From NCBI GenBank assembly GCA_016932035.1, contig JAFGDR010000009.1, forward strand, positions 34,845 to 98,844: a stretch of DNA of 64,000 nt, written 5' to 3'. Position 1 is the first letter of the stretch. Each line of letters opens with the position of its first letter. Positions 38,206-56,951 of the stretch are shown piece after piece. Position numbers and translations under genes: made by a program. Origin of the DNA: Candidatus Cloacimonadota bacterium. Lineage in GTDB: Bacteria; Cloacimonadota; Cloacimonadia; JGIOTU-2. The notes under the pieces are model-generated. The model worked only from the letters and a program-made list of their open reading frames with translations, did no database searches and had not been told where the DNA came from.

Positions 38206-38220
38206 TAATTAGAGGATATA

Positions 38221-41200: not shown

Positions 41201-43662
41201 CTGAATCACTCGGACCGTCACCCATGATTGCTGCATTTTGGGATGACCTGAGAACAACAAGCAGCAGTGATGTTTGCTATTACTATGATTCTAATTCGCA
41301 TTATTTCGTTGTAGAATGGTCACATATGAACAATGATTATGATAACTCAGAAGAAACATTTGAAGTTATTTTATACGATCCTGCCTATTATCCAACTCCG
41401 ACTGGTGACTCAGAAATACTTGTACAGTATAAAATATTTAATAATGTCAATGCAGGTTACTATTCTGGTGGTTATATCAATCATGGAGAGTATTCAACGA
41501 TAGGTTTGGAAGATCATAGTGGACTGGTTGGTCTGCAATATAGCTTCTGCAATATCTATCCCCCTGCTGCAAGAACACTCACAAATGAATCAGCAATTCT
41601 CTTTACAACTCGTGGATCTGAAATTCTCGATCCGCCAGTTGCAAATGTAACTCCTTTACAGTTTGAATTTGACCTTGATCAAGGGCAGGTAGGACATGAT
41701 GAACTCTCAATCTCGAATCTCGGAGAATCTAATCTGATCTATTCTATCGAAAAAGATTATAATACTGAGCGCGATGCAGGTGGACCGGATAGTTATGGTT
41801 ATATGTGGTCAGATTCCAACGAACCCGGCGGACCTGTTTATGAATGGATTGATATCAGTGGAATTGGCACAGAAGTTTCTTTTAGTCATAATGATGTTGC
41901 ATCAGGTCCCTTTGATATTGGATTCGATTTTGACTTCTATGGTGAAACTTATGATGAGTTTATTTTAAGTCCCAATGGATGGATCGGATTTGGTAATGAT
42001 TGGGATGATTATCATAACTATTCAATTCCAAGAAATGATGCTCCAAAACCTGCGATTTTTGGTTTCTGGGATGATCTCGATCCTCTGCAGGGTGGTGATG
42101 TATACTATTATTCCGATGGTACAGAAAACCTTATCATCTGGTTTGATCATGTCATACATTTTCCAGGTAATACAAACGGAACATATGATTTTCAGATCAT
42201 AATCTCAAGCGACAATACGATAAAATACCAGTATAGAACTCTCAGCGGGACAATCACAAGCTGTACTGTCGGTATTCAAAACGGAACAGGCTCGGTAGGA
42301 TTAGAAGTCGTCTACAATGGTAACTACCTTCAAAATAATCTTGCAGTAGAGTTCTACAGAGTAATCGATTGGCTCAGCGTGTCTCCTTCGAGTGGAATCG
42401 TTTTTGAAGACGATACACAAATAGTAGATATCGATGTCGAAACTGATGAACTCGAATATGGTTATGAGTATTATTGTGACCTTTACTTATCAACAAATGA
42501 TCCTAATCTCACCCAAACAGTTATTCCAGTACATCTTATAGTTGGTGATATTGAACAGGGAACCGTTCAGGGAACCGTAAATTTGTTTGGAGGATCTTCT
42601 TCTCCAGATGATGTGACTATTACAATAGGGAGTACATCATTACATCCAGATCCTTCAGGATGGTATAGCACAGTAATTCCTATTGGAAATTACACATTAT
42701 CTGCCACATGTCCTGGATACGACAGTTATATTCTTGATATAAACGTTCAAGCTGATCAGATAATAATTGTGAATCCTGAGCTGGAATACATTGAAGCACC
42801 AGAGAATGTATGGGTTGAATTGTCGGAAAATTATATTGCGACAATTATATGGAATGATGTATCACAATACGATAAAGCAAGACTGTTCCAGTGCTACACG
42901 CTTGCACGGCAGATTGATGATGGCAGCTGGATTATCCTTGAGGAAGGTTTGCATGACACTATTTTTGTCGATAATCTTTATGGGCAATCTGATGGTGATT
43001 ATAAATACGGAGTGAAAGCAGTGTACGAAAACACTCAAAGCTCACTCGTGGAGTCAGAGACATTACCAATCTACCGTTTTGTCGATGTCAGGTTTGAATT
43101 TACCCTTTCTAATGGGCAAACCCCTTCTGGAATTCATTTTAACCTAACAGGTCTGGATACGATCTACACCCAGGTTTTTAATGATTCAACTGGTGTTAAT
43201 GGACTCATATCGTATCAGGATGTATTCAAAGCAGATTATCATGTGACCATTGAAAAGACTGGATTTGAAACCATCGATGAAGTCATCACGATAGATGATG
43301 AGCATACAAACTTTCAATATGCACTTCAATATATAACTGATATTGGTGATACTCCAACTCCTCTTGTAAGTAAATTAGAGCAAAATCACCCCAATCCTTT
43401 CCATCGCATCGGTTACGGACATTCTGGAACTGAAATAAACTATCATATCCATAAATCCGCGCATGTACAGGTTGAGATATATAATCTCAAAGGTGAACAT
43501 GTTGCAACGTTAGTTAGTGGCAATATGACACCGGGAATTTATTCAACCACCTGGAATGGATGTGATGAGCAAAACAAGACCGTTGGATCCGGTATATATT
43601 TCTATAGACTTATGATCGATAATATCCCAGTAGAAAGCAGAAAGTGTATTCTTATTAAATAA
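38221..43662 (+). CDS. gingipain-like cysteine peptidase (family C25) with T9SS C-terminal sorting domain
   Basis: 1813 aa; signal peptide; C25 propeptide-like N-domain 'GYPDLPVISRLIAIPPQG'; His-Gly...Cys dyad context 'HYRGYYG...FPTCGTGDF'; C-terminal ~80 aa 'NHPNPF...IYFYRLMIDNIPVESRKCILIK' is a Por_Secre_tail CTD. Confidence 0.75.
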   Translation: MKRFLLVILFSLTILSLSYAGSFETVALSQDENVMKCQFSDLSTSELQFELPEFKQYLHYEKDADYLQISIPSEGSLVLEGYPDLPVISRLIAIPPQGNVNFEIRNIYEEVISNVEIYPYQGENRTVESLLKNKQVYNGTEPYPLEIITLSEPQILRDLRLVRVTIQPFQYFPATKELRIIKSADVEVTTTGNGGTNAKTSQRKISRFFEPIYKSMVLNYEQVLPEVEYQEPCYLFIYPNDTTVQAYMNYITDWKHQKGFRVETTDLAHTGTSSSQIKTFIQNAYNTWAYPPEFICLVGDADGSYNIPTSYYSSGEGDQYYTLLEGNDILADVIIGRLSFNSLLELQTIIAKILNYEKTPYMASTDWYTRALLVGDPSTSGPSCVSTCKFVKEVMQNYSNEFTYDEVYSNPFVSGIANSINNGVSYFHYRGYYGMSQWDNTDISNLSNGFLLPFAVFPTCGTGDFDGTTGRSEYFLKVGSPSTPKGAIAAIGTSTLSTHTCFNNTVSAGVFNGVFRDHIFNPGGALVRSKLSLYNSYPTNPNNWVNCFSYWNNLMGDPGMELWTTVPIQMVVTHPSSIPIGTNNIEVVVKNSFGFPLSNAWVTILQENDTIFESGYTDSYGKIVLPISTTNTDDVTITVTKHDHIPYISDFSIGQEDNFASISDIEIDDDNSGSSSGNSDHLLNPGEEVELVISLKNHGNYSLHNVTATLETDAAGVTITDNTEEYGTINVGQVVASTDDFDISIAEDVLGNTEVTFELLITDSASNQWTDWFTLPILGANLDFYDYTIIDGNDGILDPGETAQLIVTLKNSGSVSAYSIDGYLHSDDDNIVLNDSLGFWGVVYSNDTATNNSNTFEVFANTQVIPGSQYNLPLHLTNTDGYDEVVQVSLEVGVVDVGDPLGPDKYGYYCYDDGDTDYSIAPLYFWIEIDPDLGGNGTALNLYDSGDDGDIATIDIPFTFTFYGRFYHTITICTNGWIAPGSSEEFAFMNRPVPESLGPSPMIAAFWDDLRTTSSSDVCYYYDSNSHYFVVEWSHMNNDYDNSEETFEVILYDPAYYPTPTGDSEILVQYKIFNNVNAGYYSGGYINHGEYSTIGLEDHSGLVGLQYSFCNIYPPAARTLTNESAILFTTRGSEILDPPVANVTPLQFEFDLDQGQVGHDELSISNLGESNLIYSIEKDYNTERDAGGPDSYGYMWSDSNEPGGPVYEWIDISGIGTEVSFSHNDVASGPFDIGFDFDFYGETYDEFILSPNGWIGFGNDWDDYHNYSIPRNDAPKPAIFGFWDDLDPLQGGDVYYYSDGTENLIIWFDHVIHFPGNTNGTYDFQIIISSDNTIKYQYRTLSGTITSCTVGIQNGTGSVGLEVVYNGNYLQNNLAVEFYRVIDWLSVSPSSGIVFEDDTQIVDIDVETDELEYGYEYYCDLYLSTNDPNLTQTVIPVHLIVGDIEQGTVQGTVNLFGGSSSPDDVTITIGSTSLHPDPSGWYSTVIPIGNYTLSATCPGYDSYILDINVQADQIIIVNPELEYIEAPENVWVELSENYIATIIWNDVSQYDKARLFQCYTLARQIDDGSWIILEEGLHDTIFVDNLYGQSDGDYKYGVKAVYENTQSSLVESETLPIYRFVDVRFEFTLSNGQTPSGIHFNLTGLDTIYTQVFNDSTGVNGLISYQDVFKADYHVTIEKTGFETIDEVITIDDEHTNFQYALQYITDIGDTPTPLVSKLEQNHPNPFHRIGYGHSGTEINYHIHKSAHVQVEIYNLKGEHVATLVSGNMTPGIYSTTWNGCDEQNKTVGSGIYFYRLMIDNIPVESRKCILIK

Positions 43663-43742: not shown

Positions 43743-46700
43743 ATGAAATTTTTGGAGTTTTTCATGAAGACGTTTTTCATATTAACTATTGTTCTATGTG
43801 CAGTGAATATTGCTTTTGCAGATACAATAGAAAAAATTTACTATTTTGATGATCCACATTTTATCTCTGTCGATGGTAGTTATCAGGTAGTTGGTTTTGA
43901 ATCAACTATTCAATCCGCACCGGCAGGATATCCATCTTTACCTTACCATGCGATTTCATTACTATTACCCCCTGGTCATGAAGCAGTGGACATTGAGGTT
44001 TTGCCTGAGGGCAAAGAAACTCTTGCGGGAACTTACTCTCTTTATCCAGCCCAGTATGTTCAACCATATTCAAAAGAAAAATCAGGGCAATTTCTCTTAA
44101 ATCAAGACATTTATAATCAAAGTGGATCATATCCTGATAATATAAGAGGACAGCTCTCAACTGAATATATGAATGGTTTCGGATTTGCTTTTTGTGCTAT
44201 TACACCGATCGAGTATGTTCCAAAAGAACAACAACTTTCATATTATCATACTATTACCGTGAGGATCACAACCCAGATACATTCAAATAAATCATCACTT
44301 GCCATACCATCTACAGTATGTGAATCGCATTTTGAAACGATTCAAAAATTGGCTCAAAATCCTGAGATGATCACGAAATATGAACGAGATCTTCGTGACG
44401 GAGAATATGAAGTTCTCTTGATAACTCCTGAAGCATTCATAAATGATTTCTCGGACTTGATCGATATGTATCTCACTCAAGGATTACGGACTGAAATTGT
44501 AACTACTCAGACGATAGCATCAACTATGACGGGTGTTGATCTTCAGGAAAAAATCAGGAATTATATTATACAGGAATATCAAACAAACGGAATCCGATAT
44601 GTCATTCTCGGCGGAGATGATGAACATATTCCACATCGGGGTTTTTATTGCGAAGTCCAATCATCATCGTTATATACTGATGATGATATCCCTGCTGATC
44701 TATACTATTCTGCACTTGATGGAACCTGGAATGATGACAATGATAATCTTTGGGGTGAAATAGGAGAGGATGATCTTCTTCCGGATGTGTCGGTTGGGAG
44801 AATGTCATTCAGCAATTCTGCTGAACTCGCAAACATATTGAATAAATCAATGAGTTATCAGGAAAATCCTGTACTTGGGGAATTGACAAGCCCGATCTTT
44901 GCTGGTGAAGATCTGTATAACAGCCCTCAAACCTGGGGTGGTGATTATCTTGATCTTCTGATTGGTTTACGTGAAGATAATGGATATACAACCAATGGAA
45001 TCCCAGCAACTCAAAATATTGAAAAATTATATGACAGAGATCTTGGGTACTGGAGTGCATCCACACTGATAAGTAAAATAAATGAAGGAAAATCCTATGT
45101 TCACCATTCGGGTCATGCGAACCAGACATATTGCATGAGAATGGATGACAGCGATATAACAAATGCTAATTTTTCAAATGTAAATGGTACAACTCACAAT
45201 TATACACATATTTATACTCACGGTTGTCTTTCAGGTGCTTTTGATTCAAATGACTGTATTGCAGAAGATATAGTGAATTTAGAGAATTTTGCAGCATCAT
45301 TCATTGGAAATTCCAGGTATGGCTGGTTCAACGAGGGACAGACAGAAGGTCCATCCGAACATCTTCATCGTGAGTATGTTAATGCATTATATACACTAAG
45401 GAAAGACAGAATCGGAGAAGCGCACCTGTATTCGAAGATCAATACTGCTCCATGGGTGAATGCACCGGGACAGCATGAAGAAGGCGCTTTGCGATGGTGT
45501 TTCTATTGCTGTAATGTGATTGGGGATCCTGTCTTGTCCATCTGGACAGATGAACCGATCTCCATACAGGTTACTTATCCAGATAGCATTTTTATCGGTC
45601 AAACGCAAATGCAGGTTAGTATTTCAAGTTTTAGTAATGTTGAAGGTCTTGTCTGTACGATCATCAAGGACGGTATGTATCATGCTTCAGGAACAGTTGA
45701 CGCAACAGGCCTGGCAACAATCGATATTGATCCCATCTTTACAGATGTTGGGACAGCCCAATTGATCATTACCGGGTATAATTGTCTGAAAGCGAGTTAT
45801 GATATAATCATAACCCCCAGCTCGGGAGCATATGTCATCATTGATAGTGTTGCCACAAAAGACTCGAATAACAACATGCCTGAGTATGCAGAAGAAGTGA
45901 GTTTTGATTTTGTTTTGAAGAATGTCGGAACTCAGGATGCAACCAATGTAACCGCAACGATCAGTTCTGACGATGAATATATTTCCTGCTCATATTCTGC
46001 TGCCAATTTTGGTACAATTACAGCAGGTGGTATTGCTTCACAAGAAGATGTTCTACCGATCATAATTGATGAGTATATTCCGGATCAGCATGTCGCTTTA
46101 TTATCTATGAATATTTCAGCAGATGATAAGCAGTACTGGGCAACACAGTTCTCAATCATTCTTAATGCACCGGTTTTGGAAATTGGACAATGTCAAATAG
46201 ACGACAGCGCAGGCGATAATGATGGTGTGCTCGATCCTGGAGAAACAGTATTACTGACAATACCAACTCTCAACTCAGGCAATGCTACATCTCCTTCAGC
46301 CTCTTCTACTCTTAATTGCACGAACAACTTGATCACGATACAAAACTCATCTGTAAATCTCGGTGCAATTGCATCTGGAGATGCTGCTAATTCAGTTTTT
46401 ACCGTTAGTGCAAGCGATCAAATAGAAGAAGGTTCAGCTGTTACATTCGATTTTTCAGTCGATGCAGGTTTGTACGATATAGATGAAGCGATCAGCATGA
46501 CGATAGGATTAATTATCGAAGATTTTGAAACCGGAGATTTCAGCATGTTTGACTGGTATTTTAATGGAGATGCTGACTGGACAATATCAAATACGGATGT
46601 ATATGAAGGTTTCTTTTCAGCAAAATCCGGTGCAATCGAACATAGTTCTGAGACATCTCTCAAGATTGATGTCGAAGTATTTACAGATGGTGAAATCAGT

Positions 46701-47234
46701 TTCTGGAAAAAAGTATCCTCAGAAAACAATTATGATTATCTGCAATTTTACATTGATGGTTCGCTGCAGGATGAATGGAGTGGTGAGTCATCCTGGTCTG
46801 AAGAATCATATAGCGTATTAGCCGGCGTGCATACTTTTGAATGGCGCTATGACAAGGATGTCTATGTAACTGGAGGAAGCGACTGTGCATGGATCGATTA
46901 TATAATCTTCCCGCCACTTGGTGCACCAACAGCAAATGACGATCCATCAATAATAGCTCAAAATTATCTATCTGAAAACTTCCCGAATCCTTTTAATAAT
47001 TCAACCCATATACATTTTGCGATAAAGCAATCATCTCATGTTACGATTGAAATCTATAATATTTTAGGACAAAAAGTTCGAACGATAGCTGATGATGAAT
47101 TTTCTGCTGGAAATCATGAAGTACAATGGGATGGACGGGATGCTTTTGAACGAAAAGCTGCAAATGGAGTATATTTTTATAAAATGAATACAGATACATT
47201 CAATCAAACAAGAAAAATGATATTGATGAAATAA
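43743..47234 (+). CDS. gingipain-like C25 cysteine peptidase with T9SS CTD and a jelly-roll-like domain shared with the M14 protein at 52602
   Basis: 1163 aa; 'GYPSLPYHAISLLLPPG' propeptide; 'HHSGHAN...YTHGCLSGAFD' His/Cys context; CTD 'ENFPNPFN...GVYFYKMNTDTFNQTRKMILMK'. Confidence 0.75.
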   Translation: MKFLEFFMKTFFILTIVLCAVNIAFADTIEKIYYFDDPHFISVDGSYQVVGFESTIQSAPAGYPSLPYHAISLLLPPGHEAVDIEVLPEGKETLAGTYSLYPAQYVQPYSKEKSGQFLLNQDIYNQSGSYPDNIRGQLSTEYMNGFGFAFCAITPIEYVPKEQQLSYYHTITVRITTQIHSNKSSLAIPSTVCESHFETIQKLAQNPEMITKYERDLRDGEYEVLLITPEAFINDFSDLIDMYLTQGLRTEIVTTQTIASTMTGVDLQEKIRNYIIQEYQTNGIRYVILGGDDEHIPHRGFYCEVQSSSLYTDDDIPADLYYSALDGTWNDDNDNLWGEIGEDDLLPDVSVGRMSFSNSAELANILNKSMSYQENPVLGELTSPIFAGEDLYNSPQTWGGDYLDLLIGLREDNGYTTNGIPATQNIEKLYDRDLGYWSASTLISKINEGKSYVHHSGHANQTYCMRMDDSDITNANFSNVNGTTHNYTHIYTHGCLSGAFDSNDCIAEDIVNLENFAASFIGNSRYGWFNEGQTEGPSEHLHREYVNALYTLRKDRIGEAHLYSKINTAPWVNAPGQHEEGALRWCFYCCNVIGDPVLSIWTDEPISIQVTYPDSIFIGQTQMQVSISSFSNVEGLVCTIIKDGMYHASGTVDATGLATIDIDPIFTDVGTAQLIITGYNCLKASYDIIITPSSGAYVIIDSVATKDSNNNMPEYAEEVSFDFVLKNVGTQDATNVTATISSDDEYISCSYSAANFGTITAGGIASQEDVLPIIIDEYIPDQHVALLSMNISADDKQYWATQFSIILNAPVLEIGQCQIDDSAGDNDGVLDPGETVLLTIPTLNSGNATSPSASSTLNCTNNLITIQNSSVNLGAIASGDAANSVFTVSASDQIEEGSAVTFDFSVDAGLYDIDEAISMTIGLIIEDFETGDFSMFDWYFNGDADWTISNTDVYEGFFSAKSGAIEHSSETSLKIDVEVFTDGEISFWKKVSSENNYDYLQFYIDGSLQDEWSGESSWSEESYSVLAGVHTFEWRYDKDVYVTGGSDCAWIDYIIFPPLGAPTANDDPSIIAQNYLSENFPNPFNNSTHIHFAIKQSSHVTIEIYNILGQKVRTIADDEFSAGNHEVQWDGRDAFERKAANGVYFYKMNTDTFNQTRKMILMK

Positions 47235-47246: not shown

Positions 47247-50240
47247 ATGAAAGGTGCTGCAATAGTAATAATAAGTTTGTTATTCTCATCTTTACTTTTT
47301 GGTCAAACGATCTGGGAGGATAATGGTATTCCGATACGTCAGGGCGTTAATATAGAATGGTATCGATCGGGTACATCATTGGAGGATGGCTCAGTAGTAT
47401 ATGTATGGTCTGACACTCGTCTCGGAGATCGAGATGTTTGGGCACAAAGAGTTGATATCAACGGAAATCTCCTCTGGGGTGCTGATGCAGTCATGGTTAA
47501 TGGCGAGATCAATCGACAGGAAGATCCAGTTGTCATCAATACAGGTGATGGAGGAGTCATTATTGCTTGGGTAGATTTCAGAAATGAAGATGCCGGTGAT
47601 GTGTATGCACAAAAGCTTGATGGAGATGGAAATCTTCTCTGGAATGAAGCTGGAGTACCTTTATGTCTTGCATCAGATGTTCAAATATCTCTCAATATTG
47701 TGAATGATGCCAATCAGGGTGCATATGTGATCTGGCTTGATTCCCGAAATCCCGGCGGAATAGATATTTACGGTACGCATGTTAATGCTTCCGGCGATAT
47801 TGTAACAGGATGGGATGTCAATGGAAATCCAATTGCTGCTGAGAATGGTGCTCAAGATGGACACACATTCTGGGAAGATGGTACTGGCGGTGCAATACTT
47901 GCCTGGCATGATACCCGAGTTGCAACCGATGAGAATCTCTATATGCAGCGAATCGCTTCTGATGGAACATTACTGTGGGGAGCTGGTGGAACGCTTCTTT
48001 GTGGTGCCACTGATACTCAAAGCAATGTGAAAGTATGTCCTGATGGAACTGGAAGTTTTATTTTTACATGGCGTGATAAACATAGTGATCCGAATGGAGA
48101 TATCATGGCAATGCGCGTTGATCTCGATGCAAATTTCTTATGGGCTGGAGATGTGCCCATTTTCCAGGATGCAAGTATTCAAAAAGATCCAAGAATAACG
48201 CAGTCTTCAGATACAGGAGCGATCATTGTTTGGGTGGATTACAGAAATGATCCATTAGTTTCAGATATTTATACTCAAAAAATAAATGTTAGCGGTACAC
48301 TCCTCTGGGGTGTAGATGGTATTGCTCTTTGCACAGCTGAAAATAATCAGCTCGAACCTCGTTTGACAAATGATGAAAACGGAGGTTGTTATTTTGTGTG
48401 GACAGACGGAAGAAATGGGGGACATCCACACGAAGATATATATATGCAACACGTTAGTGGTACAGGTACGATTGAATGGGAATCAAACGGACAGGTGATC
48501 TGTAATGCATATGGAGAGCAGTTCTCACCTTTGCTTCGCGGAGACGGAAGCGGAAAAGTCTATGCTATTTGGGGTGATAACAGACAGGGTTCCACAGGAC
48601 TTTACTTCCAGATCCTCAATGGTTCAGGAACAGAGTATCTGACAGAAAATGGCAAATTGATCTATTACGGTCTCTGCGGTGATGCAAAAAATTATTTATT
48701 ATACCAGGGTTTAGATAAATCATTAATTCTCTGGGAAGATAGTAGAAGTCCATATACTGGTAACCAGCTCTATATGCAGGCACTTAATAATGATGGAACT
48801 ATAGATCTTGCTGTTAATGGTGCAGCACTTACTGGTCCAACTGGTTATGATCAGGAAAATGTCGATGCAATATACATAGTATCGGAGGATGAGCTTGCAG
48901 CAGTTTGGGAAGAGAACAGAACTGGCTTTAAACAAATATATGCTCAAGCCGTTGATGGACAATGTTCTCATCTCTGGTTATCAACAGGTTTGGCACTTGG
49001 CGATTTTGTATGCGAGCAGCAGAATCCCAAAATCTCTGCAGTAGCTGGTTCAAGAACAACTGAATACTATGCAGGATGGTCAGATTATAGAGATTTCATG
49101 GATCCAGGAATATTTGGACAGAAGATAGTCGATGGTGTGCTGCAATGGAATGATGAAGGGATTGAGATAGTCAACAGATCTGGTGAAGATAAACTTACGG
49201 ATGTTGTTGGTCTTTATTATATCTTTCAGAGCGGTGCTTGGAACAATCAAAATATATATGTAAAAAAAATTGATAGTAGCGGAAATACTGCAACTGGGTG
49301 GTCGGATGATGGATTGGAAATCTGCGGTGCAGCGAATAATCAGAATAATGCTACGGGACTTCTTGTACCGGAAGGTCTATTCGTCATTTGGGAAGATTCT
49401 CGTGATGGTGTTCTGGCAATCTATGGACAAGTCGTGACAGAAAGCGGTTCGGTGCTCTGGCAGGCAGATGGTGTGCCGATAGCAAGCTACGATAATGACC
49501 AGTCCGCACCGGCATATATTTATGATAATGATTTGTATGCTGTTTGGGAAGATTTCCGTAATGGTGTTGATTATAATATTTATGGTCAAAAGGTGCAAAC
49601 ATCTGATGGATCAATGCTTTGGAATCCAGATGCAGTGCCGATAGTTGATGAAGCAGGTGATCAAACCATGCCGTCAATTACAAAGGTTGGAATCAACCTG
49701 TTCGTTCCATGGCAGGATTTCCGAAACGGATTGAATGCAGATATTTACGGGCAAAAAATTTCATTAGACGGCACTGATGTATGGACATCAGATCTACCTG
49801 TGTGTACAGCTATCAAGAACCAATCCGGTCCATTAACCGTTCCCTTTGATGATTATTACGCCAGTGTAATCTGGCAGGATGCGCGATCAAGCGGGAAAGC
49901 AGATATTTACAATATCTATGCACAAAAAGTACAGATCAATGAAACCTCTGTTGATGATCCACAATCTTCAAATGTTTCTCTTATATCTCATTATCCAAAC
50001 CCGATAACAAACTCCGTTTTTTTCGTGCTTAAGAATAATGTGTTGCATCGAAATAACCGCATTGAGATCTATAATCTCAAAGGACAAAAAGTATACTCAT
50101 ATGATTTTGAAAAAGATCAGATTGAGCATATATGGGATACCAGGGATTTAAGGGGAAATCCAGTTGCAAATGGAGTTTATTTCTATCGGTATTCAAATTT
50201 CAGTGAGTCAACATCACAGAAATTAATTATTTTGAGATAG
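47247..50240 (+). CDS. T9SS-secreted protein with ~16 tandem ~55-aa repeats (propeller-like; motif 'DIY-x-QK[VI]...G...LW')
   Basis: 997 aa; signal peptide. Repeats recognisable by VWAQRV, VYAQKL, LYMQRI, IYTQKI, IYMQHV, LYMQAL, IYAQAV, IYGQVV, IYGQKV, IYGQKI, IYAQKV. CTD 'HYPNPITN...GVYFYRYSNFSESTSQKLIILR'. Confidence 0.7.
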   Translation: MKGAAIVIISLLFSSLLFGQTIWEDNGIPIRQGVNIEWYRSGTSLEDGSVVYVWSDTRLGDRDVWAQRVDINGNLLWGADAVMVNGEINRQEDPVVINTGDGGVIIAWVDFRNEDAGDVYAQKLDGDGNLLWNEAGVPLCLASDVQISLNIVNDANQGAYVIWLDSRNPGGIDIYGTHVNASGDIVTGWDVNGNPIAAENGAQDGHTFWEDGTGGAILAWHDTRVATDENLYMQRIASDGTLLWGAGGTLLCGATDTQSNVKVCPDGTGSFIFTWRDKHSDPNGDIMAMRVDLDANFLWAGDVPIFQDASIQKDPRITQSSDTGAIIVWVDYRNDPLVSDIYTQKINVSGTLLWGVDGIALCTAENNQLEPRLTNDENGGCYFVWTDGRNGGHPHEDIYMQHVSGTGTIEWESNGQVICNAYGEQFSPLLRGDGSGKVYAIWGDNRQGSTGLYFQILNGSGTEYLTENGKLIYYGLCGDAKNYLLYQGLDKSLILWEDSRSPYTGNQLYMQALNNDGTIDLAVNGAALTGPTGYDQENVDAIYIVSEDELAAVWEENRTGFKQIYAQAVDGQCSHLWLSTGLALGDFVCEQQNPKISAVAGSRTTEYYAGWSDYRDFMDPGIFGQKIVDGVLQWNDEGIEIVNRSGEDKLTDVVGLYYIFQSGAWNNQNIYVKKIDSSGNTATGWSDDGLEICGAANNQNNATGLLVPEGLFVIWEDSRDGVLAIYGQVVTESGSVLWQADGVPIASYDNDQSAPAYIYDNDLYAVWEDFRNGVDYNIYGQKVQTSDGSMLWNPDAVPIVDEAGDQTMPSITKVGINLFVPWQDFRNGLNADIYGQKISLDGTDVWTSDLPVCTAIKNQSGPLTVPFDDYYASVIWQDARSSGKADIYNIYAQKVQINETSVDDPQSSNVSLISHYPNPITNSVFFVLKNNVLHRNNRIEIYNLKGQKVYSYDFEKDQIEHIWDTRDLRGNPVANGVYFYRYSNFSESTSQKLIILR

Positions 50241-50243: not shown

Positions 50244-52520
50244 ATGAAAAAATTTATTCTTTGTTTTCTTTTTTTGCTATTTGCAGTCTCATTGTATGGA
50301 CAGATCGGATTGCCAGAGCGGTACCATACATATGATGAGATCAAAGCTGAGCTGGATTCTCTGCAGGCACTCTATCCGGATCTTGTCTTTGTTGATTCAA
50401 TAGATGTGTCAGCCACTGATTCCATACCAATCTGGGCTGTAAAGCTATCTGATAATGCATCAGTAGATGAAGATGAACCTGCAGTTCTTTATGTGGGGCA
50501 ATGTCATGCTGAGGAGGTTCTGGGCGTTGAGATCAGTATGTATATGATCAACGAGATTCTCACCCATTTCTATCAAACACCATATGCGATATGGCTTTCC
50601 GAACTCGAGATATGGTTCATTCCTTCCATAAATCCGGAAGGATTGCAGGTTGTGATGGATGGCTGGGATGTTTCATTCCGAAAGACAAAAAGGGATAATA
50701 ATCTAAACGGTATCTTTGATTTTCAGGAGGGGCCCGGACATGATATTGACGGTGTAGATCCGAATAGAAACTATTCTTATAATTGGGTGCATGGAGACAC
50801 ACTCTATGAACCAAGTGGTGAAGAACGCTATGATTATTATCGTGGTCCTTATCCCTTTTCCGAAGGCGGTACGCAAGCAGTTCGAACCTTAGCAGATGAA
50901 CAACATTTTCTCTATTCAATAAACTGGCATTCATCAAGAACAGGTAATTTTTCTGAAAAAGTTTTCTATTCATGGGAATGGGATGGTGTTAAACGATCTC
51001 CGGATTTCGAATTCAATAAAATAATCGGAGAAACAGTTGCATCACTTATAGAAACTGAAGATGGAATAGCTCATTATGAACCTTCACCCTCAAGAGGTAG
51101 AAATGGATGTGCTCATGATTGGTTTTATAACACCTATGGAACAGTACAACTTCTAATTGAATGCGGAACTGAAAATCTACAGCCGAATGCTGCACTTGTG
51201 GACGACACATGCGAGCGCTGTAAACTTGGTGCTTACTGGCTCATGAACCGAGTAATTGGTTATCAAACCGATGCAGGAATGCTGACAGGCCATATTCAGG
51301 ATGCTCAAACAAAATCACCATTAGTAGCCGAAGTATATATAAATGATCATGATGCAGTGTATTTCACTCCTCGGCATTCTGATGAATTGTATGGTCGATA
51401 TTGGCGTTTGCTGGAACCCGGAACATACTCGGTAACCTATAAAAAAAAGGGATACCAAGACACAACCCTTACAAGTGTAACGATCAATAATTCTTCCTGG
51501 ACTGTGAAAAATGTAGAGCTTGAACCGCTACCACAAGTTACTGTTGTTGGAAATGTTCATAATAACGGCACTCCTCTTACATGTGATCTCATCCTCTCTG
51601 ATGGATATTTCTCAGAAACGCTTTCATTAATAGGAGATTTTTCGTTTAATTACCATACAGGAACCTATCAGGCAACATTTATTTCAGACGGATATGTACC
51701 GCAGATTATTGATATTGTTATCGATGATAGCCTGGAAAATTTAGATATAAATTTTCAGCAGCAAGTTGTAATATTCGAAGAAGATTGGGAATCCGGTATG
51801 GATGAATGGACAGCTGGAAATTTTTGGTGTCTGTATGAAGAACCATACGAGGGCACATTTGCTTTGCGTGATAATAATGACAGGTTTTATCATAATGGTA
51901 TAGAATCTTCGATTAAGACGAGTTCATCAATCAATCTTAATGGTGTGAATGAGGATGTTGTACTTAATTTTTGGCATAACTATCATACAGAATGGGAGAA
52001 TGATATCTGCTCGGTTGAGATATCACTTAATAACATTGACTGGACTGCTCTTGCATCATATTCAGGTGTAAGTCACGGCTGGGAACAAGTACTAATTCCC
52101 ATCAAAGATTATGTCGATTCTCATGTCTATATTCGCTTTACTATCTCAACAGATTCCTATTTAAGCGATCCGGGCTGGCTTATCGATAATGTGAAGATTG
52201 TATCATCACAGGGCAATGGAATCGAAGATCCACCTACTCCGCCGCAATATATATTACAGCAAAATCAACCCAATCCATTCAGATTTATAACATTTTTCCC
52301 TTATGAAATTAACAACTCCAAGAGTGAAGATATAACTATTTCTCTTTACAATATTAAAGGGCAGCTTGTTAAAACTTTTCATATCGAAGAGAAAAACTCA
52401 ATGATTTCATGGGATGGAAAGAATGAAAAGGGAGAACCAGTTGCATCAGGTATATATTTCTATCAATTACTAGCTGATGAAGAGGTTATTGCTACCAAGA
52501 AATGTGTTTTATATAGATAA
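50244..52520 (+). CDS. M14 family zinc carboxypeptidase with CarbopepD_reg-like domain and T9SS CTD
   Basis: 758 aa; 'VGQCHAEE' HxxE zinc ligands; 'NPEG'; T9SS CTD 'NQPNPF...GIYFYQLLADEEVIATKKCVLYR'; 3-nt gap from the upstream gene. Confidence 0.75.
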   Translation: MKKFILCFLFLLFAVSLYGQIGLPERYHTYDEIKAELDSLQALYPDLVFVDSIDVSATDSIPIWAVKLSDNASVDEDEPAVLYVGQCHAEEVLGVEISMYMINEILTHFYQTPYAIWLSELEIWFIPSINPEGLQVVMDGWDVSFRKTKRDNNLNGIFDFQEGPGHDIDGVDPNRNYSYNWVHGDTLYEPSGEERYDYYRGPYPFSEGGTQAVRTLADEQHFLYSINWHSSRTGNFSEKVFYSWEWDGVKRSPDFEFNKIIGETVASLIETEDGIAHYEPSPSRGRNGCAHDWFYNTYGTVQLLIECGTENLQPNAALVDDTCERCKLGAYWLMNRVIGYQTDAGMLTGHIQDAQTKSPLVAEVYINDHDAVYFTPRHSDELYGRYWRLLEPGTYSVTYKKKGYQDTTLTSVTINNSSWTVKNVELEPLPQVTVVGNVHNNGTPLTCDLILSDGYFSETLSLIGDFSFNYHTGTYQATFISDGYVPQIIDIVIDDSLENLDINFQQQVVIFEEDWESGMDEWTAGNFWCLYEEPYEGTFALRDNNDRFYHNGIESSIKTSSSINLNGVNEDVVLNFWHNYHTEWENDICSVEISLNNIDWTALASYSGVSHGWEQVLIPIKDYVDSHVYIRFTISTDSYLSDPGWLIDNVKIVSSQGNGIEDPPTPPQYILQQNQPNPFRFITFFPYEINNSKSEDITISLYNIKGQLVKTFHIEEKNSMISWDGKNEKGEPVASGIYFYQLLADEEVIATKKCVLYR

Positions 52521-52601: not shown

Positions 52602-55600
52602 TTGTTCATGAAAAAGACCATATTTTTTATTCTATTCGTTCTTATTACAACAACATTTCTCTTCGCATGGCGACCACAGGAAATGGAAGTAAAGGTATAT
52701 CTCTCATCTGAAACTGATTATCAGACATTGTATAATCTCAAACTGAACGGAGATGTCTATTCAGGATTCGCGAGAATATTTGTTACTCCAGATGAATTTG
52801 AAGAACTTAAAGAAACCAATTTGTCATATGAAATAATTACTCAAGATCTGGAAGCTCATTCAGAGCAGATCAAAGAATTAAGAACAGACTGGCTCTGGTA
52901 TGATGATATTATTGCTTTGATGGATAGCTGTGCAGCAGCATTTCCTTTTATTTGTAGGAAAGAATATATCGGAGAAACGGTTGAAGGACGAGAAATTTCC
53001 GCATGTGTTATCAGTGATAATGTCTCATTGGAAGAAAATGAACCGGAGATCATGTTTGATGGGGGAATACACGGAGATGAACTCTGCGCTGCAGAAAACG
53101 TTGCACGAATGATCAGGTACCTTTGTGTGAATTATGGCTCGAATACACAGGTTACAAATATTGTCAATAATACTGAAGTGTGGCTTTATCCGATGGTCAA
53201 TCCTGATGGACGATATCATGTTGTGAGATACAATGCAAATGGTGTTGATCTTAACAGAGATTGGGGTTACATGTGGGATGCATGGGGAGGAAGTCCTGGT
53301 CCTTATTCACAAACTGAAACCAAAGCGCTCAGAAGTTGTATGTATAATCATCAATTTGTTGTTCATACGACGTATCATAGTGGAACTGAATTTATTTCAC
53401 ATCCCTGGAGTTATCGTTCAAACCTATGTCCTGATCATCCACATATAAATCAGCTTGCAGGTATTTACTCAACGAGTTCGGGATATGCAAACCTCGATTA
53501 CGGACCAGGTTGTACTGGCATGTACCCGATCAATGGTAGTTCAAAGGATACAAATTACGGTGTAATGGGTTCAATAAGCTGGTCAATGGAGATTTCATAT
53601 CAAAAGCAACCTCCGACTTCACAAATAGTCTATTACTGGAATCTCAATCTCCCCGCAATGCTTACTATGATGGAGTACTGCAATTACGGACTCAATGGAC
53701 TTGTTACCGATGCAGTATCTGGTGATCCTGTATCAGCTCTTATCTGGGTAAACAACTTCATGCCTACTTATACAGATCCTCAAGTCGGCGATTTTCATAA
53801 GTATGTACTCAATGGAAATTATACTGTCACAGTTACTGCCAATGGATATGAAAGCCAGACGATGAATAATGTCACTGTTACAGCAATGAATGCTACAACA
53901 ATTGATTTTCAATTGCAGCCATCAGATGACGATGCTTTTTACGGATACAAATTCGCCGCAAGCCAGATCCCTGACAATAATACAGGTGACGAAGGAAATA
54001 CACCCGCATGCCTAGGCCAACCAGATAATATAAATTATTCGATAGGTAAAAATGGTTGGTGTATTATTGATATGCAGTACCCGATCGTAGATGGACCATA
54101 TAATGATTTTACTGTATATGAAGGTGATGCATCACCAGAAGGATATGATTGTTATGTTGCAAACTCGATCGATGGACCGTTTTGTATCGTCGGTTCTGGA
54201 ATTGGTACAACAGAATTTGACCTAGGTGATTCTGATATCTCGGAAGCTCAGTTTATAAAAATCGTTGATGATGGTGATGGCACGGCAACGGCAAATGATG
54301 CCGGTTTTGATCTTGATGCGATTTCTACCGAATTCATTCAGGGAGCAAATCTTGTAATTGATGATTATTATGTTGATGATTCTGCAATTGGAAATGGAGA
54401 CGGTATTCTCGATCCGGGTGAACAAGCAATTCTCAATATTATTGTAAGAAATAATGGAACAGAAACCGCACAGGATATCCTCTCAATATTGAGTTGTACT
54501 GATCTTTACGTTTCTGTTAATGGTGACCTGGAACCATTTTCTAATATCGAACCGGGTGAAATGGACACCTCATCTGTATCAATTGCAGCTTTAGCATCGA
54601 CACCGGATGGACATCCTGCTTATTTCTCTCTGGATCTGCACTGTAACAGTAATGCATTTTCCGGAATGTATGATATTATCCTTCATGTCGGTTCAGTACC
54701 ATGCGAAGATTTTGAAACTGGTGATTTTAGCGCATTTGACTGGCAGATGGGTGGTAGCATGGACTGGACCATCGATACTATCAATCCATACCAGGGTTCA
54801 TATTGTGCAAGATCTGGAGCAATAGGACATAATACAACGACTGAGATGTCTGTTACACTTGATGTAAGCAGCGGACAGATTTCATTCTATAGAAAAGTTT
54901 CTTCTGAGAATACCTATGATTTTCTTCAATTCTATATTGATGGTGCAATGCAGGGACAATGGTCAGGAGAGATGAACTGGTCTCAGGAAGTGTACCCCGT
55001 TAATGCTGGAACTCACACTTTTAAATGGGTGTATGACAAAGATTATAATACGATAGGGGGTCAGGATCGGGCATGGGTCGATTGTATCTGTTTTCCTGCA
55101 ACATCACCCGATTATCCTATTTTCTATTTAGCACCAACATATATTGATTTTGGACAGGTGTATATCGGTTCAGATTCAACAGCTCATTTCACCGTGCAGA
55201 ATGTTGGCGGGGGAACACTCCAGGGTTCGATAAGTACACCTGTCGGATTTAGTGTCATGGAATCAGGTGGGAGTAATCCTGGAACCACCCTTGATTATAA
55301 CCTGGCTGAAGGTCAATCACAGGAATACGACCTTATCTTTTGCCCAGCACTTGTTCAATCCTATGAAGATAGTGTGCAGGTTACGATTCTACCGTTCCAG
55401 TTTGAATATATTCATGTCTGCGGCAACGGCATTATTCAAACCGGAGTGCCGAATAATGATAATTATGCTGAAACAAAGCTGCTCGGTAATTTTCCAAATC
55501 CAGTTGGAAGATCGACGGTTATTTCCTATCAACTTAAAGGTAGCGCTCAAATTCAGGATGTCATGATCGATGTTTACAATATTCATGGTGACTATGTTAT

Positions 55601-55724
55601 GACGGTAAAAGGAAATGCTGGAAAAGCAATTCTGGATTGTTCAGAAATTGGCAGCGGTGTATATTTTTATAAATTAAAACATGACAATACAGTGCAAATC
55701 AGAAAGATGGTTATCATCAAATAA
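52602..55724 (+). CDS. M14 family zinc carboxypeptidase with T9SS CTD and the jelly-roll-like domain shared with the C25 protein at 43743
   Basis: 1040 aa; 'GGIHGDE' HxxE; 'VNPDG'; shared-domain segment 'CEDFETGDFSAFDW...WVDCICFP'; CTD 'NFPNPV...GVYFYKLKHDNTVQIRKMVIIK'. Confidence 0.75.
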   Translation: MFMKKTIFFILFVLITTTFLFAWRPQEMEVKVYLSSETDYQTLYNLKLNGDVYSGFARIFVTPDEFEELKETNLSYEIITQDLEAHSEQIKELRTDWLWYDDIIALMDSCAAAFPFICRKEYIGETVEGREISACVISDNVSLEENEPEIMFDGGIHGDELCAAENVARMIRYLCVNYGSNTQVTNIVNNTEVWLYPMVNPDGRYHVVRYNANGVDLNRDWGYMWDAWGGSPGPYSQTETKALRSCMYNHQFVVHTTYHSGTEFISHPWSYRSNLCPDHPHINQLAGIYSTSSGYANLDYGPGCTGMYPINGSSKDTNYGVMGSISWSMEISYQKQPPTSQIVYYWNLNLPAMLTMMEYCNYGLNGLVTDAVSGDPVSALIWVNNFMPTYTDPQVGDFHKYVLNGNYTVTVTANGYESQTMNNVTVTAMNATTIDFQLQPSDDDAFYGYKFAASQIPDNNTGDEGNTPACLGQPDNINYSIGKNGWCIIDMQYPIVDGPYNDFTVYEGDASPEGYDCYVANSIDGPFCIVGSGIGTTEFDLGDSDISEAQFIKIVDDGDGTATANDAGFDLDAISTEFIQGANLVIDDYYVDDSAIGNGDGILDPGEQAILNIIVRNNGTETAQDILSILSCTDLYVSVNGDLEPFSNIEPGEMDTSSVSIAALASTPDGHPAYFSLDLHCNSNAFSGMYDIILHVGSVPCEDFETGDFSAFDWQMGGSMDWTIDTINPYQGSYCARSGAIGHNTTTEMSVTLDVSSGQISFYRKVSSENTYDFLQFYIDGAMQGQWSGEMNWSQEVYPVNAGTHTFKWVYDKDYNTIGGQDRAWVDCICFPATSPDYPIFYLAPTYIDFGQVYIGSDSTAHFTVQNVGGGTLQGSISTPVGFSVMESGGSNPGTTLDYNLAEGQSQEYDLIFCPALVQSYEDSVQVTILPFQFEYIHVCGNGIIQTGVPNNDNYAETKLLGNFPNPVGRSTVISYQLKGSAQIQDVMIDVYNIHGDYVMTVKGNAGKAILDCSEIGSGVYFYKLKHDNTVQIRKMVIIK

Positions 55725-55741
55725 CTAAGAAATGAGGTAAG

Positions 55742-56935
55742 ATGAAATTATCTACTCGTGCTATAGAAATTCAGGCATCACCTATACGAAAGCTAACACC
55801 TTTTGCCGATGATGCAAAAAAGAAGGGCGTTCATGTATATCATCTCAATATCGGGCAACCTGATATTGAAACACCCAGAGAAATCTTGGATGTGTATAAT
55901 CATTTTGATGGAAAGGTACTTTCGTATGGTCCTTCACAGGGGTTGTTGAGTTATAGGCAGAGTCTTGTGCGCTATTATAATAAGCATCACATTCCTATCA
56001 GTATTAAGGATCTGATCGTGACAACTGCCGGCTCTGAGGCTATTATCTTTGCTCTGCTTGCAACCTGTAATGTCGGAGATGAAGTGATCATACCTGAACC
56101 ATTTTACACAAATTATAACGGATTTGGGACTATTGCAGGAGTAACCATTAAACCTCTTACAACCTATGCTGAAGACGGTTTTTCACTCCCTCCAGATGAA
56201 AAAATAATCGAGTGCATAACAGAAAAAACAAAAGCAATTCTCTTCAGTAATCCAGGTAATCCAACCGGTGCTGTTTATTTGAAAAATGATCTTGAACGAT
56301 TAGCGAAGATAGCACTCAAATATGATCTCTATCTCATATCTGATGAAGTGTATAGAGAATTCATATATGACGGTCTTTCTCATACAAGTATTCTACACAT
56401 TAATGGGATCGAGGATCGGGCAATAATGGTAGACAGCATTTCCAAGCGATATAGCGCATGTGGTGCAAGAATTGGATGTATTATATCAAGAAATAATGCT
56501 TTAATGGAATCTATCCTGAAATTCGCACAAGCACGTCTTTGTCCACCTACAATAGACCAGTTAGCAGCACAGGCTGCAGTTGATATTGAGGATGCTTATT
56601 TTATCGATGTTCTCAAAGAATATGATAAAAGACGAAATATTGTTTATAATGAAGTACATAAGATCGAAGGTATCGTGTGTGTGAAACCGCAAGGGGCGTT
56701 CTATATGATCGTGAAGCTGCCTATCGAAGATGCTGAAGATTTTGCTCAGTGGATGCTCGAGGAGTTTTCTGATAATAATGAAACCGTTATGTTTGCCCCG
56801 GCAAAAGGATTTTATGCAACTCCCAAAATGGGAAGAGATGAAGTTCGCCTTGCATATATCCTCAATGAAGATGACCTGAAATGTGCGATGCATTTGTTCC
56901 GAAAAGGTCTTAAGGAATATATAGAAAAACATTAA
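55742..56935 (+). CDS. class I/II pyridoxal-phosphate aminotransferase (aspartate/aromatic aminotransferase-like)
   Basis: 397 aa; 'IQASPIRKL' N-terminal motif; 'SISKRYSACGARIG' PLP-lysine region. Confidence 0.8.
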   Translation: MKLSTRAIEIQASPIRKLTPFADDAKKKGVHVYHLNIGQPDIETPREILDVYNHFDGKVLSYGPSQGLLSYRQSLVRYYNKHHIPISIKDLIVTTAGSEAIIFALLATCNVGDEVIIPEPFYTNYNGFGTIAGVTIKPLTTYAEDGFSLPPDEKIIECITEKTKAILFSNPGNPTGAVYLKNDLERLAKIALKYDLYLISDEVYREFIYDGLSHTSILHINGIEDRAIMVDSISKRYSACGARIGCIISRNNALMESILKFAQARLCPPTIDQLAAQAAVDIEDAYFIDVLKEYDKRRNIVYNEVHKIEGIVCVKPQGAFYMIVKLPIEDAEDFAQWMLEEFSDNNETVMFAPAKGFYATPKMGRDEVRLAYILNEDDLKCAMHLFRKGLKEYIEKH

Positions 56936-56951
56936 TGATCGGAGTTTTTAA

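What the first reader, a model, noticed from the sequence alone, without database searches (positions are those of the whole stretch)
47247..50240. T9SS cargo protein built from ~16 tandem ~55-aa repeats of an unrecognised type
Periodic motif roughly '(D/N)-(I/L)-Y-x-Q-(K/R)-(V/I)-x-x-x-G-x-x-x-W-x-x-x-G-V-P-(I/L)' recurs every ~55 residues. Several units also contain 'W(V/E)D(F/Y)RN'. The unit count and length are compatible with two 8-bladed propellers, or one large propeller. The protein is located between the C25 and M14 genes with 12-nt and 3-nt gaps. It is not an SBBP, YD or PQQ repeat that I recognise.
Basis: seen in the sequence. Interest (0 to 1): 0.5.

Follow-up and report, generated by a model that had tools for sequence, protein, structure and literature searches.

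The report
Double eight-bladed propeller beside secreted peptidases
This gene encodes a secreted surface protein of a Cloacimonadota bacterium whose sixteen ~55-residue repeats most likely fold into two eight-bladed beta-propellers; it is real, sits in a conserved operon with peptidases and has no studied relative, but it is a fairly ordinary kind of protein.

Summary
ORF 47247-50240 (+, 997 aa) has a signal peptide and a type-A T9SS C-terminal domain. Between them lie 15 complete ~55-aa repeats plus one unit split between the N- and C-termini, making 16 blades.

No Pfam repeat model matches. The only curated similarity is sub-threshold to NCBIfam TIGR04275. A profile of the unit finds more than 14,000 protein clusters (E <= 1e-10). 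These carry arrays of 7 or 15 full units, and some are archaeal.

Across Cloacimonadota the gene is followed by an M14 carboxypeptidase in 47 of 50 loci (median gap 12 nt), with a C25 peptidase adjacent.

Best reading: a non-catalytic, surface-anchored binding or scaffold partner of these peptidases. The function is inferred, not shown. PorZ membership and GH43 membership both fail their tests. I rate it a new member of a known kind, of modest interest.

The parts
47247..50240 (+). Whole ORF, 997 aa plus stop: the repeat protein (T9SS cargo)
   Evidence: It is 100% identical to an NCBI MAG protein named 'T9SS type A sorting domain-containing protein [Candidatus Cloacimonetes bacterium]' (P0001).
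47247..47306 (+). Signal peptide, about residues 1-20 (MKGAAIVIISLLFSSLLFGQ)
   Evidence: The sequence shows a hydrophobic N-terminus, modelled as a helix at residues 2-16 with low pLDDT. The exact cleavage site was not determined.
47307..47351 (+). N-terminal fragment of a repeat unit (residues 21-35, strand 28-31). Inferred to supply strand D of the last (16th) blade as a 'velcro' closure.
   Evidence: It matches repeat-HMM positions 25-41. DSSP shows a strand at 28-31 with pLDDT 83-89. PorZ has the same topology (PMC5121618). The pairing in 3D was not inspected because no coordinates were available.
47352..48677 (+). Propeller 1: blades 1-8 (residues 36-477)
48678..49943 (+). Propeller 2: blades 9-16 (residues 478-899). 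Blades 9-13 are degenerate. Blade 16 has only strands A-C (858-896).
   Evidence: The C-terminal partial unit 874-898 matches HMM positions 3-24.
49944..49979 (+). Flexible linker (residues 900-911)
   Evidence: pLDDT is below 50 for residues 901-911.
49980..50237 (+). T9SS type-A C-terminal sorting domain (residues 912-997), a seven-stranded beta-sandwich
   Evidence: PF18962 38.4 bits and TIGR04183 36.8 bits. The model has seven strands. PDB sequence hits cover only this part: PorU 6za2, and the CTDs of 8glj and 5m11.
43743..47234 (+). Upstream neighbour: C25 (gingipain-like) peptidase with propeptide and T9SS CTD, 1163 aa
   Evidence: Peptidase_C25 E 2.6e-53 and Propeptide_C25. It is not PorU: NF033707 scores 67.7 bits against a cut-off of 420.
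50244..52520 (+). Downstream neighbour: M14 zinc carboxypeptidase with T9SS CTD, 758 aa. This is the conserved partner gene.
   Evidence: Peptidase_M14 E 1.8e-32. An HAEE zinc motif is present at residue 88. It lies immediately downstream of the repeat gene in 47/50 loci at >=40% identity. The median gap is 12 nt.
37183..43662 (+). Start of the cluster: LVIVD-repeat lipoprotein (37183-38205) and a 1813-aa C25 peptidase (38221-43662)
   Evidence: The order LVIVD, C25, repeat gene, M14 recurs in many Cloacimonadota loci.
52602..60641 (+). Rest of the cluster: second M14 (52602-55724), aminotransferase (55742-56935), third C25 (56952-60641)
   Evidence: The same order is seen in L008.

Best explanation
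The gene encodes a Sec-exported, T9SS-secreted protein.

Structure (shown). The mature part, residues ~21-900, is built from 16 four-stranded beta-blades.

Structure (inferred from shown results). The blades form two closed eight-bladed propellers. The N-terminal strand (28-31) completes the last blade, so the two propellers are tied together at blades 16/1 and 8/9.

Cargo status (inferred). A disordered linker and a short seven-stranded type-A CTD follow. This is the layout of cargo whose CTD is cleaved and which is then anchored on the cell surface.

Family (shown). The repeat belongs to a very large family found in bacteria and archaea. The family has no Pfam model and is only weakly related to NCBIfam TIGR04275.

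Function (inferred). In Cloacimonadota the gene is co-transcribed with an M14 carboxypeptidase and lies next to C25 endopeptidases. I take it to be a non-catalytic surface module that binds substrate (protein or glycoprotein debris) or holds the peptidases, so that endo- and carboxypeptidase act next to each other at the cell surface. Candidate binding surfaces are the conserved first propeller and the inter-propeller junction.
For: Repeats and their significance.

Fold: AF2 with 71 orthologues gives pLDDT 91.2 and pTM 0.80, all-beta, four strands per unit.

The best Foldseek hits are two-propeller proteins: PorZ 5m11 (E 9e-14), then EMC1, Elp2 and DDB1. In 147 relatives, contiguous full-unit arrays peak at 7 (n=70) and 15 (n=22).

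Velcro topology: the split unit matches the PorZ description in PMC5121618.

Cargo-type CTD: about 86 aa, seven strands, no extra hairpin. Cleaved CTDs span 67-88 aa; uncleaved PorZ and PorU CTDs span 96 and 108 aa with an added hairpin (PMC11285876).

Synteny:
- 220 relatives in GTDB species genomes, the best 80 nearly all Cloacimonadota;
- M14 immediately downstream in 47/50 loci at >=40% identity, and C25 upstream (26/64) or within 4 kb downstream (22/34);
- the gap from the repeat gene's stop to the M14 start has a median of 12 nt over 46 loci.

Binding rather than catalysis: elsewhere the repeat is fused to Ig-like, PKD, CARDB, LTD and CTD domains, and none of the 13 relatives scanned carried an enzyme domain.

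Conservation: it is concentrated in propeller 1 and in the loops of blades 16, 1, 2 and 8.
Against: No ligand, partner or activity was tested, so the function rests on gene neighbourhood and domain company only.

The more distant Cloacimonas/Syntrophosphaera copies (<40% identity) have an M14 neighbour in only 1 of 12 loci. Two of those loci were inspected, and there the flanking genes are housekeeping genes. A relative in another organism has no peptidase neighbours. The peptidase link is therefore a property of one orthologue group, not of the repeat.

Some blades carry conserved His, Asp and Glu residues (QED 91-93, H178, H206, D211), which could be catalytic.

I could not inspect coordinates. 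The 8+8 partition and the pairing of strand 28-31 with blade 16 are therefore inferred.
Confidence: 0.5

Rival explanations
1. It is the Cloacimonadota counterpart of PorZ. On this reading it is a T9SS attachment-complex component whose two propellers bind anionic LPS and pass it to the PorU sortase, rather than ordinary cargo.
For: PorZ (5m11) is the top Foldseek hit in the PDB: E 9e-14, TM 0.33 normalised to the query and 0.40 to the target.

The architecture is the same: two propellers plus a CTD. The unusual chain topology is also the same, with the N-terminal strand closing the last blade of the second propeller.

The family is conserved across the phylum.
Against: The query does not hit the PorZ model NF052228 at all. 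In the four orthologues whose PorZ match was located, the hit covers only the CTD (profile positions 675-757) and scores 20-26 bits against a cut-off of 260.

Identity to 5m11 is 10%.

The propellers are 8-bladed, not 7-bladed.

The CTD is short and lacks the extra hairpin of the uncleaved PorZ and PorU CTDs.

The family is multi-copy. There are tandem arrays of 3-4 paralogues (L034, L056) and several loci per genome.

The neighbours are cargo peptidases. The adjacent C25 is not PorU: 67.7 bits against a cut-off of 420.
Confidence: 0.1
2. It is a propeller enzyme, for example a glycoside hydrolase or lyase acting on glycoprotein or cell-wall material, that works alongside the peptidases.
For: Sub-threshold Pfam Glyco_hydro_43 matches occur in 11 of 36 orthologues (best E 2.1e-8), and precomputed GH43 labels appear.

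Conserved acidic and His residues occur in blades 2-4.
Against: GH43 is a five-bladed propeller, and TM-scores to GH43 structures are 0.11-0.21. No GH43 hit reaches significance in the query itself.

The most conserved residues (W, D, R, Y, Q, G, W) recur in every blade. That is the signature of a structural repeat motif, not of a single active site.

None of the 13 relatives scanned carries a catalytic domain; the partner domains found were mostly adhesin-type.
Confidence: 0.12
3. It regulates the neighbouring peptidases as an inhibitor, a zymogen chaperone or a gating propeller acting in trans. The analogy is to the propellers of prolyl oligopeptidase, DPP-IV and tricorn, which control access to an active site.
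For: The coupling to M14 is tight (median gap 12 nt) and the operon with C25 zymogens carrying propeptides is conserved.

The propeller domains of S9 peptidases and tricorn appear among the structural matches.

Against: In known gated peptidases the propeller is fused to the catalytic domain. No such fusion was seen among the relatives scanned.

The paralogues without peptidase neighbours argue for a more general binding role.
Confidence: 0.12
4. It is one 16-bladed super-propeller rather than two rings.
For: The N- and C-terminal half-units imply that blade 16 and blade 1 are adjacent. A single ring would also produce that.
Against: Whole eight-bladed propellers superpose on the model at 2.8-3.1 A over about 305 residues, which is 86-95% of the target chains. 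That is impossible for a ring with half the curvature.

Relatives exist with single 8-blade modules (7 full units plus a split one).

PorZ shows how two rings give the same adjacency.
Confidence: 0.02

Closest known systems
PorZ (P. gingivalis PG1604, PDB 5m11), surface component of the T9SS attachment complex
   Same: Signal peptide, two tandem four-stranded-blade propellers, then a C-terminal Ig-like T9SS CTD. The N-terminal strand supplies the last strand of the last blade of the second propeller, then a very short linker leads into propeller 1.
   Different: Eight blades per propeller rather than seven. There is no sequence similarity outside the CTD: 10% identity, and the PorZ model NF052228 matches only over the CTD, well below its cut-off. 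The CTD is short and cargo-like, without the extra hairpin. The family has many paralogues. The gene lies with cargo peptidases, not with porU, porV or porQ.
BamB / PQQ-like eight-bladed propellers (e.g. 4hdj, 8adg; cd1 nitrite reductase 1aof)
   Different: No detectable sequence relationship. There is no Pfam PQQ hit, and hhalign of the family or unit profile against E. coli BamB gives a probability below 2%. BamB is a single periplasmic lipoprotein propeller; this protein is a double propeller exported by T9SS.
NCBIfam TIGR04275 beta_prop_Msarc repeat (and the loosely related SBBP PF06739 / delta-60 TIGR02608 repeats)
   Same: This is the only curated repeat model with a statistically supported match. 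The query scores E 1.5e-7, and 19 of 36 orthologues match (best E 5.8e-14). The match falls on the 'strand B, loop, strand C' part of the unit (residues 158-175).
   Different: All scores (19-46 bits) are far below the curated cut-off of 85 bits. Pfam SBBP does not match at all. The unit here is ~55 aa, whereas the model is 40 positions long. These families also have no known ligand or function.
Gingipain + CPG70 system of P. gingivalis (C25 endopeptidases and an M14 carboxypeptidase, all T9SS cargo)
   Same: The same two peptidase families, each with a T9SS CTD, are encoded around this gene. That CPG70 trims C-termini produced by gingipains is my own knowledge of the literature, not a result obtained here.
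   Different: In P. gingivalis the non-catalytic binding function is provided by haemagglutinin/adhesin domains fused to the gingipains (also my own knowledge). No double-propeller partner is known there. Here a separate propeller protein is encoded in the operon.

Membership tests
T9SS type-A CTD cargo | N-terminal Sec signal peptide | tested here: met
   A hydrophobic N-terminus, MKGAAIVIISLLFSSLLFGQ, read from the sequence. No dedicated signal-peptide predictor was available.
T9SS type-A CTD cargo | C-terminal Por_Secre_tail / TIGR04183 domain above the curated cut-off, folding as a seven-stranded sandwich | tested here: met
   PF18962 38.4 bits (cut-off 27) and TIGR04183 36.8 bits (cut-off 23). 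The model has seven strands at residues 912-995.
T9SS type-A CTD cargo | T9SS machinery present in the same genome; CTD cleaved and protein anchored | not testable with these tools
   No T9SS core gene was found among the window ORFs scanned. The presence of T9SS in Cloacimonadota is taken from PMC11285876.
Eight-bladed beta-propeller fold | Closed ring of eight four-stranded antiparallel blades | tested here: met
PQQ-like / BamB repeat family (sequence) | Match to Pfam PQQ, PQQ_2 or PQQ_3, or profile similarity to BamB | tested here: not met
   No such Pfam hit even at E <= 10. hhalign against E. coli BamB gives a probability of 0.6-1.9%. That test used a single BamB sequence, so it is weak.
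SBBP / TIGR04275 beta-propeller repeat | Score above the curated cut-off (TIGR04275: 85 bits; PF06739 gathering score) | tested here: not met
   TIGR04275 scores 31 bits in the query and 19-46 bits in orthologues. E-values are significant (down to 5.8e-14) but all scores are below the cut-off. PF06739 was never reported.
PorZ | Sequence match to NF052228 above 260 bits over the propellers | tested here: not met
   No hit in the query. 15 of 36 orthologues hit the model. In the four whose hit was located, it covers only the CTD part (profile 675-757) at 20-26 bits.
PorZ | Two seven-bladed propellers | tested here: not met
   16 blades, with eight-bladed geometry. PorZ has 7+7 (PMC5121618).
PorZ | N-terminal strand completes the last blade of the second propeller | tested here: met
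   The split repeat unit has its N-terminal fragment on HMM positions 25-41 and its C-terminal fragment on 3-24. DSSP shows a strand at 28-31. This was inferred from the repeat register, not from inspected contacts.
PorZ | Uncleaved, extended CTD (96 aa with an extra beta-hairpin); binds A-LPS; part of the PorU/V/Q complex | tested here: inconclusive
   The model CTD is ~86 aa with seven strands and no extra hairpin, which argues against. Cleavage, LPS binding and complex formation cannot be tested here.
GH43 glycoside hydrolase | Five-bladed propeller with the Asp/Asp/Glu catalytic residues; Pfam PF04616 above threshold | tested here: not met
   No PF04616 hit in the query. 11 of 36 orthologues give matches at E <= 0.01 (best E 2.1e-8). 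I read these as sub-threshold from the 'faint' flag on the precomputed hit; the bit scores were not displayed. The blades number eight, not five, and TM-scores to GH43 structures are 0.11-0.21.

The most novel reading that the evidence does not exclude
The conserved Cloacimonadota operon (LVIVD lipoprotein, C25, double propeller, M14, C25) may be a surface 'protein-utilisation locus'. In it the double propeller would be the dedicated substrate-capture or scaffold subunit, the counterpart for proteins of the surface glycan-binding proteins of polysaccharide utilisation loci.

Alternatively, one paralogue may have taken over the PorZ role in a phylum whose T9SS attachment complex has never been studied.

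Either way, a repeat family of more than 14,000 protein clusters that reaches Asgard archaea would gain its first assigned function.
Probability: 0.2. Interest if true: 0.55.

Novelty: new member of a known kind. Interest (0 to 1): 0.3.

Why it matters
Cloacimonadota are abundant amino-acid and protein fermenters in anaerobic digesters and anoxic waters, and none has been grown in pure culture (my own knowledge). How they capture and degrade protein at the cell surface is known only from gene lists.

A propeller protein that is almost always co-transcribed with their M14 and C25 peptidases is a concrete candidate for the missing binding or organising component.

Separately, the unit profile (alignment A2) defines a very large beta-propeller repeat family: 23,371 clusters at E <= 1e-3, in bacteria and archaea. 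The family has no Pfam model and only a weak NCBIfam neighbour. That makes it a useful curation target.

It is not a new fold or a new principle.

Tried and rejected

2. Recent duplication of an 8-blade propeller. Blade-to-blade identity is flat at ~30% at every offset, with no signal at offset 8.

3. PorU/PorZ pair. The neighbouring C25 is not PorU, and the PorZ model hits are confined to the CTD.

4. Sequence link to BamB/PQQ. hhalign against E. coli BamB found nothing. Only one BamB sequence was used, so this is a weak test.

5. Model of propeller 1 alone, to count blades directly.
   - The single-sequence model was unusable (pLDDT 53) and was discarded.

6. AFDB Foldseek search: the library was unavailable.

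7. The search for homologous proteins with the 55-aa unit profile. The word index found no candidates, so that search was wasted.

8. Promoter and terminator scan of the cluster. Counts equal the shuffled expectation, so it is uninformative.

9. Rosetta-stone search for fusions of the repeat to peptidases or other enzymes. None were found in the 13 relatives scanned.

10. Literature. No paper mentions TIGR04275, and nothing was found on this protein family in Cloacimonadota.
Full report
**Observation.** ORF 47247-50240 on the + strand encodes 997 aa.
- It lies 12 nt after a 1163-aa C25 peptidase gene (43743-47234).
- It lies 3 nt before a 758-aa M14 carboxypeptidase gene (50244-52520).
- All three proteins end in a T9SS type-A sorting domain.
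- The wider cluster, in order, is: LVIVD lipoprotein, C25, C25, this gene, M14, M14, aminotransferase, C25.

**The repeat.** An HMM seeded on six obvious units and iterated on the protein finds three kinds of match:
- 15 complete units at residues 50-863, period ~55 aa, scoring 37-71 bits each;
- an N-terminal fragment (19-35) that matches the second half of the unit;
- a C-terminal fragment (874-898) that matches the first half.

In 200 shuffles of the protein the seed model never exceeds 5.5 bits. The consensus is VIVVWEDSRNGGDEDIYAQKVDGDGTLLWNADGVPICGAAGEQSNPKI. In detail: 16 units, one of them split between the two ends of the chain.

**Origin and distribution.**
- The protein is 100% identical to an NCBI MAG protein of 'Candidatus Cloacimonetes'.
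- Full-length relatives of ~1000 aa at 42-76% identity are numerous (1785 hits).
- A scan of one genome per GTDB species found 220 relatives. The best 80 are almost all Cloacimonadota.

**Fold.** AlphaFold2 with 71 orthologues gives pLDDT 91.2 and pTM 0.80. The model is all-beta with four strands per unit, a disordered linker at 901-911 and a seven-stranded C-terminal sandwich. No coordinates were available to me, so the geometry rests on structural searches.

Foldseek ranks two-propeller proteins first: PorZ 5m11 (E 9e-14), then EMC1, Elp2 and DDB1.

A single 16-bladed ring could not superpose on whole 8-bladed rings at ~3 A. The protein is therefore two eight-bladed propellers.

Relatives give independent support. 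In 147 of them, contiguous arrays of full units peak at 7 and 15, that is, 8 or 16 blades with one split blade.

**Chain topology.** The split unit means that the N-terminal strand (28-31) supplies the fourth strand of blade 16. Blade 16's other three strands are 858-896, and only five residues separate strand 28-31 from blade 1. PorZ is described in exactly this way (PMC5121618). I infer this topology from the repeat register and the DSSP assignment, not from inspected contacts.

**What the repeat is related to.**
- Pfam has no model for it. Neither the query, nor 36 orthologues, nor the best-scoring relatives from other lineages match any Pfam repeat family. They give only scattered sub-threshold hits such as GH43 (11/36 orthologues) and Lipoprotein_15 (9/36).
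- No PDB chain shares the repeat by sequence. All PDB sequence hits fall on the CTD.
- hhalign against E. coli BamB finds nothing.
- The one supported link is NCBIfam TIGR04275 (beta_prop_Msarc). The query scores E 1.5e-7 at 31 bits. 19 of 36 orthologues match, with a best E of 5.8e-14. All scores are below the 85-bit cut-off. There are also isolated hits to delta-60 and to an SBBP lipoprotein model.

The repeat is thus a divergent, uncurated relative of a poorly characterised group of propeller repeats.

**Size of the family.** A profile of the 15 units scored against 1.84 billion cluster representatives finds 23,371 proteins at E <= 1e-3, 14,029 at E <= 1e-10 and 6,458 at E <= 1e-30. Their lengths run from 543 to 5506 aa. 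They include Asgard archaeal proteins.

**Context.** I compared the window's neighbouring proteins with the ORFs of the 80 loci.
- M14: among loci with >=40% identity and >=1 kb of downstream sequence, an M14 gene follows immediately on the same strand in 47 of 50.
- C25: a C25 gene lies directly upstream in 26 of 64 loci, or within 4 kb downstream in 22 of 34.
- LVIVD: an LVIVD gene often precedes the cluster.
- Spacing: the gap from the repeat gene's stop to the M14 start has a median of 12 nt over 46 loci. This argues for co-transcription.

The link is not universal.
- Only 1 of 12 copies below 40% identity (Cloacimonas, Syntrophosphaera) has an M14 neighbour. Two such loci were inspected, and there the flanking genes are housekeeping genes.
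- One relative in a different organism has no peptidase neighbours.
- Several genomes carry tandem paralogues: four in L034 and three in L056.

**Mechanism.** The following are shown:
- a secretion signal and a type-A CTD;
- 16 blades;
- eight-bladed geometry;
- a conserved operon with M14 and C25.

The remainder is inferred. The CTD is ~86 aa with seven strands, follows a disordered linker and has no extra hairpin. That resembles cleaved cargo CTDs (67-88 aa) and not the uncleaved CTDs of PorZ and PorU (96 and 108 aa with an added hairpin; PMC11285876). The protein is therefore probably ordinary cargo that ends up anchored on the cell surface.

Three observations bear on what it does there:
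- Elsewhere the repeat is fused to Ig-like, PKD, CARDB, LTD and CTD domains, and none of the 13 relatives scanned carried an enzyme domain.
- The residues conserved in every blade (W, D, R, Y, Q, G, W) look structural.
- Conservation among orthologues is highest in propeller 1 (blades 1-4) and in the loops of blades 16, 1, 2 and 8, that is, at the junction of the two rings.

I therefore favour a non-catalytic binding or scaffold protein that holds substrate, or the peptidases themselves, at the cell surface next to the C25 endopeptidases and the M14 carboxypeptidase. I give this about 0.5 overall: the structural part is much more certain, the functional part less so.

**Rivals.**
- PorZ analogue. 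This is attractive on architecture and topology. It fails on sequence, blade number, CTD type, copy number and gene neighbourhood. Confidence about 0.1.
- Propeller enzyme. It is suggested by weak GH43 matches and by enzyme propellers among the fold hits. GH43 is five-bladed, TM-scores to it are 0.11-0.21, and no single active-site signature is visible. Confidence about 0.12.
- Regulator or gate of the peptidases acting in trans. This cannot be excluded but has no specific support. Confidence about 0.12.
- One 16-bladed ring. Rejected.

**Novelty and verdict.** The thing itself is a beta-propeller T9SS cargo protein, which is a common kind. It belongs to a repeat family that is uncurated but detectably related to a known NCBIfam repeat. 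I rate it a new member of a known kind, interest 0.3.

Its value is twofold. First, it defines a large repeat family with no Pfam model. Second, it is a candidate accessory subunit of the surface proteolytic machinery of Cloacimonadota, conserved across much of the phylum.

**Dead ends.** The main dead ends were as follows; the separate 'tried and rejected' field gives the full list.
The single-sequence model was unusable (pLDDT 53).
- The AFDB library was unavailable.
- The unit-profile word search found nothing.
- The promoter and terminator scan was uninformative.
- There is no offset-8 signal among the blades.

Noticed in passing
window 37183-38205 (+): A 340-aa LVIVD-repeat protein with a lipoprotein signal (…LFAGC) opens the peptidase cluster. 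The same LVIVD gene precedes the C25, propeller and M14 genes in many other Cloacimonadota loci, e.g. L002, L014, L016, L022, L030, L031.
   Followed up: partly
window 55742-56935 (+): A class I/II aminotransferase (cytoplasmic type) is embedded between T9SS-secreted M14 and C25 genes. The same order recurs in L008. This hints at a link between extracellular proteolysis and amino-acid catabolism within one transcription unit.
   Followed up: no
P0127 and cluster members; P0121, P0122, P0160: The same repeat occurs in Asgard archaea (Hermodarchaeota/Promethearchaeota, 1325 aa, 15 full units). It also occurs in giant proteins of 4286-5506 aa with 26-29 matched stretches. None of these is annotated.
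   Followed up: partly
P0167 (1977 aa), residues 1480-1585: One relative with a 16-unit repeat array also carries a TIR domain (PF13676, E 3.4e-8). This is an unexpected partner for what otherwise looks like an extracellular module.
   Followed up: no
L034 1496-11051; L056 1106-10946; L046; L074; L003: There are tandem arrays of two to four paralogous double-propeller genes in some Cloacimonadota genomes and in a Candidatus Eisenbacteria contig. In L034 and L056 only the last copy is followed by the M14 gene.
   Followed up: partly
window 34428-37084 (+): A GAF + HD-domain protein (556 aa) and a response-regulator-GGDEF diguanylate cyclase (314 aa) lie immediately upstream of the peptidase cluster. 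A PAS histidine kinase (60654-63107) lies immediately after it. This may indicate cyclic-di-GMP or two-component control of the cluster.
   Followed up: no
window 28808-30955 (+): Two adjacent paralogues carry a Big_7 Ig domain plus a Fibrobacter succinogenes major domain (Fib_succ_major, E 2e-51 and 4e-43).
   Followed up: no
window 3911-5125 (-) and 5151-6356 (-): Two adjacent ~400-aa ORFs have no Pfam match at E <= 1e-5.
   Followed up: no
window 47247-47310 and 50244-50310: The signal peptides of the propeller protein (…LLFGQTIW) and of the M14 (…SLYGQIGL) both place a Gln just after the hydrophobic core. This would fit the 'Q-rule' described for Bacteroidetes signal peptidase I substrates (PMC5837995, listed but not read).
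   Followed up: no
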